DNA of 64,000 bases from an uncultured Mycoplasmatota bacterium (GTDB lineage Bacteria; Bacillota_I; Bacilli_A; RF39; UBA660), in NCBI GenBank assembly GCA_945949305.1, contig CAMFED010000002.1:14605-78604 (forward strand), given 5' to 3'. A program made the position numbers and the translations under genes. Positions 53,501 through 56,337 of this stretch are shown piece by piece. The notes beneath the pieces were generated by a model, which was not told the origin of the DNA, searched no databases, and saw only the letters and a program-made list of their open reading frames with translations. How positions within the stretch are numbered: position 1 is the first letter of the stretch; every line of letters begins with the position of its first letter.

Positions 53501-56337
53501 TTATAAAACTTGTTTCCAAGTTGTACCATTTATTTTTGTCCACATACTTTTTATTTTATGCCAGCCGGTTAAGTTAACAGCAGGTCCTGCCGTGAAAGTG
53601 CCTGTCCCGGCGTTCTGATAGAATACACTGTTCACATCGTCCCACAGCCCAATTACGCCGGAAGCGTTCTTGCACGGAATAAAGTCTCGAACCAACGTAC
53701 CGTTGTCATAAATCTTGCATCCGTAAACTTTCCCCACAGTATAATCGAGCGCATTATTTCCATTATTTAATGCAAGCAAAAACAAATTGTTCGTTGCAGT
53801 AAAGGTAGTTGCCGTCAGCGTATACGAAACGCCGTCCACCGTGACCACATTCTGATCCAGGTCGACGGTCAGCCGTTTGTTCCAATTCGTTTGCGGAATG
53901 GCAGATCGTTGCGTCCCGTAGTCTACTCCCCACGAATTGTGAACATCCGTCCACCAATACACACTAAAACAGTTGTTCATACCGCCCGCCCATGTACCGA
54001 ACACATACGGGATTCCGGCAGTCGACAACAGCTGTAAGTCCATCACAACTCTTGTGTTGTGCTTTGGCTTAAGTCCAGTATCGATATACTGTGTCCCGGA
54101 ACTCTGGATATATTCTAATTCAACTAAGCCACTAGGAATAGTAGTACTAATTCCAGTATTTACAAACATTTGTATTGGCTATTTCCAAGGGCTAGAATCC
54201 TTAGCTGTACTATATGGAGCAGCAGGTAATGTAAAATCTTTAGTCCATTTACATCCTTTACTTACTTTTAATTCAGCGATATATCCTTTATAATAGCATC
54301 CTGACTAATGATTACTACTTGCACTTTCAGCTAATGTGCCTAATGTTAATCCTACATAGCTGGTATTAGTGTTTGTTATAGTACCTTTTAATTTTCCATC
54401 AAGGAAACAATAAGTTGTTGTTCCTGATAAGCACATTGCTATATGAGTCCATGTATTAAGTACAGGTGTACCTCCACCAAGACCGGGCCAACTGTTAGAA
54501 GGAGTTGCTGCGACAAAGGTCTAGCTAGATAGTCTATGCATATACATTCCACGTCCTGCACTTGATATTAAAGTAAAGGGTGTGGGATAAGTATTATTAT
54601 TATTAGAAGTCTAATAGAACCATCCTTCAATTGTTATATCTCCTGTATAGGTAGATGGAAAAGGCATATACATATATGAAGAACTACCATCAAATTTTAA
54701 TGAATTTTTACCAAAATGAGTTTGTTCATTAGATAATGTAACATTATTATTGGTAATTGTTAATGATAAATTACCTTGGCTCTATAAACTATCGCCATTA
54801 AAATAAGCAAGACTAGAAGGGTCATTCATTAAATTACTTGTAAATACTCCACTTCCTAAATTAGTTTTAAATGTAGATGTTTTTAAATCATATAATCCTA
54901 ATACCTTATCTGAAATTCGCTATACTGGAATAAAATCATGAGCAAGAGTAGAACCATTATATATTTTAAATCTATACACTTTCATGCTAGCTTTATTGCC
55001 ATATGCGGTGTTGTTCTTATTAATACAACCAATATACATAGGTAAACCAGTAGTAATATTACCACTAAGAGTTATAGTAGAACCATTAGGTTTCGTATAC
55101 ACTTTATTTACTAATTTAATGTTAATTTTTGATGTATTTGTAATGCCTGAATTATATACAGTAGAACCATATTTAAATTCAGTACCGCTATTGCTATCTA
55201 CGGGTATTGTATCAATACGGAAGAAATTCTATGTTTCACTAGTGCCACCAGAAGCGTCATTACCACGTACACCAAATAAATTATAATAAGGCGAAGAAGA
55301 TTGCCCGTTTAATGGTTCAAATGTAATATCAAAACCAGTATTGCTATCAATTATGGCTCCTGTATTAATGTATTGAGTGCCTGTGAATTGTAAATATTCA
55401 ATAGGACTATAAGTAGAAGGGAGAGTCTAAGGAATTTTTACTAAAGTATTTCCGCTGCTTTTAGCTTCTATAACGGTAATACGGACATAACCATTACCAG
55501 TATGGCCTGTTTCACTAGTGCCTGCCGGAGAAGTAAATGAAGTATTACCAGCTGTCGTAGAAGCAGAAGTTAAATAGTAAGAAGAATTAAGCAGACAACC
55601 AGAGGGATAGTTAGAAGCTGTAGAAGATGTATATACATATCCAGATCCTCCACCACCATATCCATCACATTTTCCAGCACCGCCTCCGTACCAGCCTCCG
55701 CCGCCACCGCCACCGCCATGAGCCCCAGCAGTTTGAGATCCTCCAGATCCAAACGAACCAGCAGTAGCAGTAGTTGCTCCATCATCTGTATAATCTGATG
55801 TGGCTACAGCTCCTCCCATAGTAGCAGTAGCACCAGCTCCATTACGTCCAGTTCCTCCACCCGTAGAACTTCCTCCCCCATATCCTCCAGCGGTCGCTGA
55901 ACTATCAGATCCACCTCCACCGCCACCGGCCACAATCACACGAGAATAAAGAGAATTAGAGCCAATTCTTATATCAGTTCCACCACCACCACTATTTCCA
56001 TATCTTCCTGAACTATGCGTGCTACATGTTCCAAGATGGCTACTTCCTCCACCATTAAATCCACCAGGAACACTAGCTCCTAAAGTTGAAGTATAATTTC
56101 CGGCTCCTCCAGTATATAAATATAATGTACTACGCTAAGACAGTATTATTATACCCTAAGAGTATCCTCCTTTAGCTCCAGTAGTTCCTCTATTGCCACC
56201 AGAAGCACCCCAACACTCTAATCTATATTTGCCTTTTGGAAGAGTGATCTATTTCGCGGAACCACTATACGGACAATTTAATATATCACCTGTTTTTATT
56301 TTACTTGGAATTACAGAAGTTAAATCATATGTTGCCA
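53501..56337 (-). CDS. large tail fibre / receptor-binding protein (about 945 aa)
   Basis: One reading frame running from the ORF 53501-54169 upstream through at least 8 TAGs. It has a Gly-rich collagen-like stretch (55427-55939), lectin-like repeats (...YNGSTLAHDFIPV / ...YDNGTLVRDFIPCKN), and a GC-rich, TAG-free C-terminal domain. Confidence 0.5.

What the first reader, a model, noticed from the sequence alone, without database searches (positions are those of the whole stretch)
53560..54100. GC-rich, TAG-free island forming the C-terminal receptor-binding domain of the 945-aa tail fibre
Within a genome of about 30% GC, roughly 540 bp at the 3' end of the large fibre gene are near 50% GC and contain no TAG codons. 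The remainder of the same gene has at least 8 TAGs. This is the expected signature of a recently swapped receptor-binding module taken from a donor with standard code and higher GC.
Basis: seen in the sequence. Interest (0 to 1): 0.5.

Follow-up and report, generated by a model that had tools for sequence, protein, structure and literature searches.

The report
Swapped lectin module in phage fibre gene
The last ~560 bases of a large tail-fibre-like gene, in a low-GC gut phage that reads TAG as an amino acid, are a foreign GC-rich patch recombined in-frame from a module shared with unrelated high-GC phages; this is a well-documented but ordinary case of phage host-recognition genes being mosaics.

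Summary
Window 53546-54107 (minus strand, codons 741-931 of the 945-aa gene 56338..53501) has GC 0.47 and GC3 0.53. The rest of the gene has GC3 0.17, and these are the highest GC3 values in the 64 kb. The patch has no TAG; the rest of the gene has 11.

- The patch is 93.5-95% identical in DNA to a module gene in 55-57% GC gut phages, where it follows a collagen-like fibre gene and precedes a holin.
- Syntenic low-GC relatives (L016, L017) carry a native low-GC version at the same place.
- The 5' crossover is an 8-nt GAATATAT (54108-54115) in the conserved LEYI motif, not 54170-54180. The 3' crossover lies in a conserved box at 53546-53592.
- Two independent assemblies of the same phage lineage (L055, L049) also carry the island, so it is not an assembly chimera and not unique to this genome.
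- TAG absence alone is weak evidence, because a native relative's domain is also TAG-free.
- The module is compositionally atypical in the high-GC phages too, so the true source may be a third lineage.
- The domain models as a ConA/LamG/CBM40-like lectin jelly-roll. Receptor binding is inferred, not shown.

This is ordinary tail-fibre mosaicism.

The parts
53501..56338 (-). 945-aa tail-fibre-like gene: TTG start at 56338, TAA stop at 53501-53503, 11 in-frame TAG read as sense
   Evidence: ORF with TAG read through. Orthologues in L016 (923 aa), L055 (1030 aa as called) and L017 (518 aa) begin with the same LATYDLTS sequence. Upstream neighbours at 56.8-63.5 kb hit tail-fibre PHROGs.
55469..56251 (-). 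Glycine-rich domain (aa 30-290). This is the second GC-rich patch of the gene; the GC comes from Gly/Ala codons, not from foreign DNA.
   Evidence: Pfam PF12810 ALK_LTK_GRD, E=4e-47. GC1/GC2 are high and GC3 is 0.10-0.23.
54836..55435 (-). Internal copy (aa 302-501) of the same lectin-like domain family as the C-terminus, with native low-GC codons
   Evidence: BLASTP against the C-terminal domain: 30% identity, E=6e-15, sharing the EYxQxTGTQYI and GLxD...F..N.G.G.F motifs.
54257..54691 (-). Laminin_G_3 / ConA-like domain (aa 550-694)
   Evidence: Pfam PF13385, E=4e-14.
53564..54145 (-). C-terminal lectin-like beta-sandwich domain (aa 732-925), a family with no Pfam model
   Evidence: AlphaFold2 model with pLDDT 88, all-beta. 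Foldseek hits to CBM40, the NanB lectin domain, agrin LamG and pentraxins, prob 1.0, TM 0.43-0.55. About 1988 database homologues.
53546..54107 (-). Foreign GC-rich patch (GC 0.47, GC3 0.53, no TAG, all five CAG codons of the gene)
   Evidence: 93.5-95% nt identity to L056/L057/L058/L002 and L001. Informative sites run 226 donor-type to 7 native-type inside, against 10 to 41 outside, Fisher P=1e-32. Identity to native relative L016 falls to 33-45% here.
54108..54115 (-). 5' crossover: 8-nt GAATATAT shared by native and donor-type sequences (codons of E-Y-I in the LEYIQ motif)
   Evidence: Window is 30/30 identical to native L017 across 54154-54125. The last native-type informative site is 54116 and the first donor-type site is 54107.
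53546..53592 (-). 3' crossover zone: a conserved box (…GGACCTGCTGTTAACTTAACCGGCTGGCATAAAATAAAA) shared by the window, L055, L001, L016 and L017
   Evidence: Similarity to L056-type carriers ends at 53592. The window matches native L017 at 42/47 and L016 at 39/47 in this box.
53501..53545 (-). Last 15 codons, which together with the downstream spacer differ from every relative. This is a second, separate rearrangement at the 3' end.
   Evidence: Window against L055, L016 and L017 is about 60% here and about 46% downstream, whereas L055, L016 and L017 are 97-100% identical to one another downstream.
54179..54181 (-). Last in-frame TAG of the gene.

Best explanation
The island is the product of homologous (homeologous) recombination. 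It replaced the variable core and the C-terminal conserved box of an existing C-terminal lectin-like domain in a tail-fibre-like gene of a low-GC, TAG-recoded, jumbo-type gut phage. The incoming allele came from a gene pool of about 47% GC that is also carried by 55-57% GC standard-code phages.

The crossovers lie in the two sequence boxes conserved across the domain family. One is the N-terminal LEYIxSxGTQYIDTG box, with its junction at the 8-nt GAATATAT at 54108-54115. The other is the C-terminal …GTGxFxxGPAV…WHKIK box at 53546-53592. The fusion is therefore in-frame and the fold is kept.

A segment from a standard-code genome contains no in-frame TAG, so it can be read without change in a TAG=Gln phage. 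This is why the patch is TAG-free and encodes Gln with CAG.

Shown: the compositional break, the donor-type identity, native alleles in relatives, the breakpoints, and purifying selection on the minus-strand frame.

Inferred: that the domain is a distal glycan-binding (receptor-recognition) module, that the exchange changes host or receptor specificity, and that the exchanging phages meet in the same host cell.
For: **Composition.** GC3 is 0.53 against 0.17, the top of 747 windows.

**Donor-type identity.** 94.9% over 584 bp to L001 and 93.5% over 524 bp to L056/L057/L058/L002, with flanks that do not align.

**Native alleles in relatives.**
- Syntenic relative L016 is 80-96% identical across codons 241-760, then 33-45% through the island. 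Its domain has GC3 0.10-0.28.
- L017 is 30/30 identical up to GAATATAT. After that the window switches to the donor type.

**Breakpoints.** Informative-site partition gives Fisher P=1.3e-32.

**Independent assemblies.** L055 is 94.4% identical over window 55657..53533, straight through the junction. L049 also carries the island.

**Purifying selection.** 26 of 34 differences from L056 are at third codon positions, and 166 of 174 aa are identical.

**Carrier context.** In the high-GC carriers the module gene sits between a collagen-like fibre gene and a holin.

**Fold.** The model is ConA/LamG/CBM40-like.

**TAG = Gln.** The family-invariant Gln of GTQYIDTG is encoded by TAG in native L017 and by CAG in the window.
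Against: - No donor genome with over 95% identity and a matching background GC was found. IMG/VR, JGI metagenomes and GTDB genomes gave at most 53% aa identity, and INPHARED gave nothing.
- In L056 and L057 the module is itself compositionally odd (GC3 0.53 against 0.72-0.78), so the direction and ultimate source are unresolved.
- No AT-biased drift is seen in the window copy (12 against 15 sites), so age cannot be estimated from amelioration.
- L001 combines a donor-type 5' flank with a jumbo-phage-type 3' tail and may be a chimeric contig. L049 is unrelated bacterial-like sequence after nt 486.
- Receptor binding is untested. PHROG hits for the gene itself are 'unknown function'.
Confidence: 0.85

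Rival explanations
1. Assembly chimera: the assembler joined reads from a high-GC phage into the low-GC phage contig at shared sequence.
For: The island is flanked by motifs conserved between lineages. Short metagenome contigs of this region are visibly unreliable, for example the second half of L049 and possibly L001. The longest exact run between the window and L056 is 116 nt.
Against: At the 5' junction, native and donor-type sequences share only 8 nt, far below any assembler k-mer. The join is in-frame. L055, from another sample and 4-6% diverged, reads continuously through both junctions, and L049 has the same arrangement with a shifted crossover.
Confidence: 0.03
2. Reverse direction: the module is native to the low-GC recoded phage lineage and was exported to the high-GC phages.
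For: In L056 and L057 the module's GC3 (0.53) is well below its neighbours' (0.72-0.78). L001 carries a low-GC jumbo-phage-type tail after the module.
Against: Module GC3 of 0.53 is 3.5 SD above the window's gene-wide mean. Native alleles of the same domain in L016 and L017 have GC3 0.1-0.3. The module has no TAG and uses CAG, which no other late gene of the window does.
Confidence: 0.05
3. Local composition reflects selection on the protein or on translation (amino-acid content, codon optimisation), with no horizontal transfer.
For: The other GC-rich patch in the same gene (55500-56100) is explained purely by Gly/Ala content.
Against: Here the excess is at third codon positions. The DNA is 93-95% identical to sequences in unrelated genomes. 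Relatives with the same domain at the same place are low-GC.
Confidence: 0.01
4. The island is the variable region of a diversity-generating retroelement, or another templated hypervariable cassette, at the C-terminus of a fibre gene.
For: It has a C-terminal position in a fibre-like protein. Neighbouring genes in relatives carry Mtd_N domains.
Against: There is no second copy (template repeat) of the island anywhere in the 64-kb window at word size 7. Differences between alleles are mostly synonymous third-position changes, not adenine-specific. The fold is LamG/ConA-like, not C-type-lectin.
Confidence: 0.01

Closest known systems
Mosaic receptor-binding / tail-fibre genes of tailed phages. 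Modular exchange of distal fibre domains by recombination at conserved linker sequences is classically described for T-even gp37/gp38, lambdoid stf/tfa and lactococcal RBP head domains (from my own knowledge, not tested here).
   Same: The exchanged unit is a C-terminal, distal, lectin-like domain. The crossovers lie in conserved boxes flanking a variable core. The same module is found in unrelated phage backgrounds, either as a separate small gene after the fibre gene or fused to it.
   Different: The recipient is a TAG-recoded, 31% GC, jumbo-type phage and the other carriers are 55-57% GC standard-code phages. The exchange therefore crosses both a 25-point GC gap and a genetic-code difference. 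The domain family itself has no Pfam or PHROG annotation.
Genetic code 15 (TAG to Gln) gut phages with recoding concentrated in late genes (bioRxiv 10.1101/2021.08.26.457843; PMC9523058)
   Same: In-frame TAGs are concentrated in the structural and late half of the window (40-64 kb) and nearly absent from the replication and auxiliary genes. TAG occupies an invariant Gln position in relative L017.
   Different: No suppressor tRNA(CUA) lies in this 64-kb window. Clade membership was not determined. The cited paper does not discuss TAG-free foreign patches inside recoded genes: a search of its text found no occurrence of 'horizontal' or 'recombination'.
ConA-like lectin / LamG / CBM40 carbohydrate-binding jelly-rolls, e.g. 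Ruminococcus gnavus IT-sialidase CBM40 (6er2) and the S. pneumoniae NanB lectin domain (2vw1)
   Same: The predicted all-beta sandwich matches them with Foldseek probability 1.0.
   Different: TM is only 0.43-0.55 and sequence identity 10-18%. There is no sequence-level hit to any solved structure and no Pfam LamG hit for this domain. No ligand-binding residues were checked.

Membership tests
Horizontally exchanged (mosaic) phage fibre module | Compositional discontinuity with the host genome at synonymous sites | tested here: met
   GC3 is 0.53 against 0.17 in the rest of the gene, the highest of 747 windows.
Horizontally exchanged (mosaic) phage fibre module | High nucleotide identity to the same segment in unrelated genomic backgrounds, with unalignable flanks | tested here: met
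   93.5% over 524 bp to L056/L057/L058/L002 (GC 0.55-0.57). The flanks are about 42-45% identical, which is random level.
Horizontally exchanged (mosaic) phage fibre module | Close relatives of the recipient carry a different (native) allele at the same locus | tested here: met
   L016 (syntenic, 88% nt upstream) and L017 have low-GC domains. Identity collapses to 33-57% inside the island.
Horizontally exchanged (mosaic) phage fibre module | Defined in-frame breakpoints | tested here: met
   5' at 54108-54115 and 3' at 53546-53592. Fisher P=1e-32 on informative sites.
Horizontally exchanged (mosaic) phage fibre module | The module determines receptor or host specificity | not testable with these tools
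   Only context (fibre gene cluster) and a lectin-like predicted fold.
ConA-like lectin / LamG superfamily | Beta-sandwich jelly-roll fold matching solved members | tested here: met
   AF2 pLDDT 88. Foldseek prob 1.0 to CBM40, LamG and pentraxin, though TM is only 0.43-0.55.
ConA-like lectin / LamG superfamily | Sequence-profile membership (Pfam Laminin_G_3 or related) | tested here: not met
   Pfam hits only aa 30-290 and 550-694 of the protein, with nothing on aa 720-945. No PDB sequence hit.
Code-15 (TAG=Gln) phage | Many in-frame TAGs in otherwise intact, conserved late genes | tested here: met
   94 TAGs in 7081 late-gene codons. Coding density rises when TAG is read through.
Code-15 (TAG=Gln) phage | TAG aligns with Gln in homologues | tested here: met
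   The invariant Q of GTQYIDTG is TAG in L017. Window TAGs align with TAG, CAA and AAA in L016. The sample is small.
Code-15 (TAG=Gln) phage | Phage-encoded suppressor tRNA(CUA) | tested here: inconclusive
   There are five tRNAs in the window and none has a CUA anticodon. The window is only part of a genome of roughly 185-210 kb.
DGR variable region | Template repeat copy plus reverse transcriptase nearby | tested here: not met
   No second copy in the 64 kb. No RT was noticed among the ORFs examined, but the ORFs were not scanned exhaustively.

The most novel reading that the evidence does not exclude
The lectin-like module is a promiscuous cassette with its own composition (GC 0.47 in both a 31% GC and a 56% GC phage, with no drift towards either). 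It is shuttled repeatedly, via two conserved recombination boxes, between a TAG-recoded jumbo phage lineage and standard-code temperate-type phages. Sub-segments of the island have different nearest relatives: the 5' 113 bp are 98% identical to L056, and the middle 202 bp are 98% identical to L055 and L049. This implies ongoing exchange, hence co-infection of one host. It would give a handle for assigning a host to an uncultured recoded jumbo phage. It would also illustrate a one-way code filter: standard-to-recoded transfers are always readable, whereas the reverse works only for TAG-free pieces.
Probability: 0.35. Interest if true: 0.45.

Novelty: new member of a known kind. Interest (0 to 1): 0.3.

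Why it matters
This is a clean, breakpoint-resolved example of fibre-module exchange across a large GC gap and a genetic-code difference, in an uncultured gut jumbo-type phage. It has three practical uses.
1. The exchange partners (phages with collagen-like fibre and holin cassettes, and family members in Clostridia, Oscillibacter and Erysipelotrichaceae genomes) point to a Firmicutes host for the recoded phage.
2. It flags a large lectin-like domain family with no Pfam or PHROG annotation (about 2000 database members) as a likely specificity determinant.
3. It shows that TAG-free stretches in recoded genes are not in themselves evidence of foreign origin.

Conceptually it adds little, because tail-fibre mosaicism is well known.

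Tried and rejected
- **INPHARED phages.** blastn (distant) of the island, megablast of the 24-kb late region, and tblastn of the domain all found nothing.
- **Exact 35-mer in GTDB genomes.** No hit.
- **Protein-guided scans.** IMG/VR, JGI metagenomes and GTDB genomes returned only 30-53% identical family members, so no donor genome was found.
- **PDB sequence search.** No hit.
- **PHROGs for the C-terminal domain.** No family.
- **DGR hypothesis.** Rejected, because there is no template copy.
- **Amelioration test.** There is no AT bias among differences from L056 (12 against 15), so no age estimate is possible.
- **TAG-free as a foreign signature.** Rejected as independent evidence, because the native L016 domain is TAG-free and long TAG-free runs are common.
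Rejected, since that is only the last TAG.
- **Second GC patch at 55500-56100.** Considered as another foreign island and rejected, because GC3 is low and it encodes a Gly-rich domain.
- **phAss-1 group of TAG-recoded phages (PMC10607447).** Looked at as a possible relative. It shows no sign of being related: about 44% GC and 136 kb, against 31% GC here. Sequences were not compared.
- **Plus-strand ORF 53973-54293.** Its sequence was not examined. It is assumed to be a by-product of the GC-rich stretch, because differences between alleles fall on third codon positions of the minus-strand frame.
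Full report

Yes.
- The window is 31.3% GC overall. In 300-nt windows GC climbs from 0.24-0.28 at 53100-53600 to 0.47-0.51 at 53600-54100, then falls back to 0.32-0.37.
- Table-11 ORFs in the 40-64 kb part are fragmented. Reading TAG through restores long minus-strand genes.
- One of these genes is 56338..53501: 945 aa, TTG start, 11 in-frame TAG, the last at 54179-54181.
- The rise is at synonymous sites. GC3 is 0.53 for codons 741-931 against 0.17 for the other 754 codons.
- The five highest-GC3 60-codon windows among 747 drawn from all genes of the window fall inside the island: maximum 0.62, against a mean of 0.186 and SD 0.098.
- A second GC-rich stretch in the same gene (55500-56100) is a different phenomenon. 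There GC1 and GC2 are high and GC3 stays at 0.10-0.23, because it encodes the Gly/Ala-rich PF12810 domain.

**2. Is TAG absence meaningful?**

Only partly.
- By codon rate, 2.8 TAGs are expected in 191 codons, giving P(0)=0.06.
- TAG-free runs of 225 codons or more occur seven times in the late genes.
- The native low-GC C-terminus of relative L016 has no TAG in its last ~360 codons.
- Gln codon usage is more telling. The island has CAG 5, CAA 2, TAG 0. The rest of the gene has TAG 11, CAA 8, CAG 0, giving P about 0.002.
- TAG most likely encodes Gln. The family-invariant Gln of the GTQYIDTG motif (alignment A2) is a TAG in relative L017 (…GGCACATAGTATATT…). Window TAGs align with TAG, CAA and AAA in L016. 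This agrees with published code-15 gut phages (PMC9523058; bioRxiv 10.1101/2021.08.26.457843).

**3. What the gene is**

The domains, in order:
- PF12810 glycine-rich domain, aa 30-290.
- A lectin-like domain with no Pfam or PHROG annotation, aa 302-501.
- Laminin_G_3, aa 550-694.
- A second copy of the unannotated domain at the C-terminus, 30% identical to the first (E=6e-15).

The gene closes a block of genes with tail-fibre PHROG hits at 56.8-63.5 kb.

An AlphaFold2 model of the last 225 aa (37-sequence alignment, pLDDT 88) is an all-beta sandwich.
- Foldseek finds CBM40, the NanB lectin domain, agrin LamG and pentraxins at probability 1.0. TM is only 0.43-0.55.
- In BFVD it finds uncharacterised gut Siphoviridae and Myoviridae proteins and ConA/LamG-like proteins.
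- There is no sequence-level PDB hit.

The family has about 1988 database members. Its N-terminal box (P15…T34) and C-terminal box (Y152…P199) are conserved and flank a variable core. 'Glycan-binding receptor-recognition module' is therefore a reasonable inference and not a demonstrated fact.

**4. Where the island came from**

*Carriers in high-GC phages.* The nearest DNA matches are short gut-metagenome contigs:
- L001: 94.9% over 584 bp, matching window 54115..53533.
- L002: 93.3% over 524 bp.

The L002-type protein (P0124) occurs on six contigs. L056, L057 and L058 are 55-57% GC. In them the 330-aa module gene follows a collagen-like or 457-aa fibre gene and precedes small ORFs and a holin (PF09682). 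All genes there are read in standard code with no in-frame TAG. In these phages the module starts its own gene (ATG AGT TTA CCG AGC GGA TAC…) just after the upstream gene's stop codon.

*Relatives of the window phage.*
- L016 (185-kb contig, GC 0.287) is syntenic and has an orthologous 923-aa gene. It is 80-96% identical in DNA across codons 241-760, falling to 33-45% across codons 761-840. Its C-terminal domain has GC3 0.10-0.28.
- L017 (186-kb contig, GC 0.31) has a shorter gene (518 aa) that lacks the internal lectin-like copy and the Laminin_G_3 domain. It is 30/30 identical to the window at 54154-54125. The identity runs up to the octamer GAATATAT, after which the window follows L001 and L002.

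*Breakpoints.* Informative sites (window equal to the donor type or to native L017) show 31 consecutive native sites up to 54116. From 54107 to 53564 there are 226 donor-type and 7 native-type sites (Fisher P=1.3e-32).
- The 5' crossover is the 8-nt GAATATAT at 54108-54115.
- The 3' crossover lies at 53546-53592. In this box the window, L055, L001, L016 and L017 all agree (39-45 of 47), while the L056-type carriers diverge into their own C-terminal extension.
- Upstream of the 5' junction the protein is still homologous to the donors (…PSG..LEYIQ) but is encoded with native low-GC codons.

So the event replaced most of a pre-existing homologous domain rather than adding a new one.

**5. Not an artefact, and not unique to this genome**
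- An 8-nt overlap cannot create an assembly join.
- L055 is a 6.6-kb contig from another sample (GC 0.335, 96% identical to the window in the native part). It reads straight through both junctions, 94.4% identical over window 55657..53533, and shows the same GC3 jump.
- L049 also carries native upstream sequence (including the same TAG) followed by the island, but its crossover lies about 45 nt further in.
- Differences between the window and L056 fall at third codon positions in 26 of 34 cases, with 166 of 174 aa identical. The minus-strand frame is therefore under purifying selection.

**6. Refinements to 'recent swap from a higher-GC donor'**

(a) The island is itself a mosaic:

| Segment | vs L056 | vs L055 | vs L049 |
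|---|---|---|---|
| 5' 113 bp (53995-54107) | 98% | 85% | 80% |
| middle 202 bp (53793-53994) | 94% | 98% | 98% |
| 3' 200 bp (53593-53792) | 90.5% | 91.5% | too short |

This pattern fits repeated exchange or gene conversion better than one event.

(b) In L056 and L057 the module has GC3 0.53, while its neighbours have 0.72-0.78. Module GC is 0.47 in all three backgrounds, with no AT-biased drift in the window copy (12 against 15 sites). The high-GC phages may therefore be fellow recipients, and the ultimate source may be a lineage of about 47% GC that has not been found. Searches of INPHARED, IMG/VR, JGI metagenomes and GTDB genomes gave nothing closer than 53% aa identity. Family members in genomes are all from Firmicutes: Clostridia, Oscillibacter, Clostridiaceae and Erysipelotrichaceae.

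(c) The last 15 codons (53501-53545) and the downstream spacer of the window differ from every relative. L055, L016 and L017 agree with one another there at 97-100%. A separate rearrangement therefore abuts the island.

(d) L001 has a donor-type 5' flank and a jumbo-phage-type 3' tail, and may be a chimeric contig. L049 becomes unrelated bacterial-like sequence after nt 486. I do not rest conclusions on those parts.

**7. Mechanism**

*Shown:* an in-frame homeologous recombination patch bounded by family-conserved boxes.

*Inferred:*
- The boxes act as shared linkers that allow the variable, presumably ligand-contacting, core to be exchanged among phages. This is what is classically described for tail-fibre and RBP genes (my own knowledge).
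- The exchange alters receptor specificity.
- The partners meet in a common Firmicutes host. Consistent with that host, the window also encodes an SLH-domain protein.

A standard-code segment has no in-frame TAG and is read unchanged under code 15. This explains why the patch is TAG-free and uses CAG.

**8. Rivals**

Assembly chimera, reverse direction of transfer, selection-driven composition, and a DGR variable region were each considered and given low probability. The DGR reading fails because there is no template copy in the 64 kb.

**9. Verdict**

Biologically it is a new, well-resolved instance of a known kind of event, tail-fibre module mosaicism. Its moderate added interest is that the exchange crosses a genetic-code and GC boundary and involves a large unannotated lectin-like domain family.

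Noticed in passing
window 15649-35089 (minus-strand genes 15649-17070, 21395-22942, 26099-27514, 30753-33245, 33542-35089): A set of auxiliary genes has raised GC (0.38-0.44), no TAG, and almost exclusive CAG for Gln (for example 30:2 and 22:2), even though GC3 is only 0.26-0.41. The set comprises an SPFH/flotillin gene, NAMPT, an RNA ligase, a major-vault-protein-like gene (MVP_shoulder, Vault_3) and a DUF2828/DUF7788 gene. Four of the five (all but the RNA ligase, whose plus-strand ORFs are much shorter) also carry long plus-strand antisense ORFs covering two-thirds or more of the gene, near full length in three. The one checked is codon-aligned, so the gene lacks TTA and TCA codons and has only three CTA. 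These genes probably have a different origin or expression class from the rest of the phage.
   Followed up: partly
window 40086-53096: The late, heavily TAG-recoded region holds a YcaO cyclodehydratase (40086-41864). It also holds at least five radical-SAM/SPASM-like genes, judged mostly from CxxxCxxC-type motifs in their translations, and a radical-SAM + GT2 glycosyltransferase fusion (51042-53096). There are Ser/Gly/Asn/Tyr-repeat proteins at 44878-45696 (NGSSTNSYGSS repeats) and 50582-51109 (SYDSSYDGGYRG repeats). This looks like a peptide- or protein-modification (RiPP-like) cluster next to the fibre genes. Relative L017 has tSAM_targ_Cxxx_rpt, radical SAM and Peptidase_C39 genes downstream of its fibre gene.
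   Followed up: partly
window 36642-39999: There are five tRNA genes: Cys-GCA, Lys-TTT, Leu-CAA, Leu-TAA and Thr-TGT. There is no suppressor tRNA(CUA) in the window despite 94 in-frame TAGs in the late genes.
   Followed up: no
window 35519-36595: An SLH (S-layer homology) domain protein is encoded by the phage. This hints at a host with an SLH-anchoring cell wall (Firmicutes-type).
   Followed up: no
window 53166-53545, compared with L016:11033-11877 and L055:6228-6590: The last 15 codons of the fibre gene and the junction to the next gene differ from all relatives. The next gene is 53486..53166 (106 aa), preceded directly by a GGAGG ribosome-binding site. In L016 the homologue of that downstream gene lies about 600 bp further away, behind an AT-rich spacer that is 97-100% conserved among L055, L016 and L017. 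This suggests a deletion or replacement in the window lineage.
   Followed up: partly
L001:790-876 and L049:487-756: Two of the short metagenome contigs look composite. L001 joins a GC-rich fibre-gene end and the module to a low-GC tail that is 97% identical to L055. L049 switches after nt 486 to unrelated GC-rich sequence that, in another frame, encodes a bacterial-looking peptide, possibly LeuA-like (judged by eye). These may be real recombinants or assembly chimeras.
   Followed up: partly
window 6543-11670: The phage encodes GyrA- and GyrB-like topoisomerase subunits, identified by eye from the translations. Together with relatives on 185-209 kb contigs, this suggests a jumbo-type genome.
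   Followed up: no
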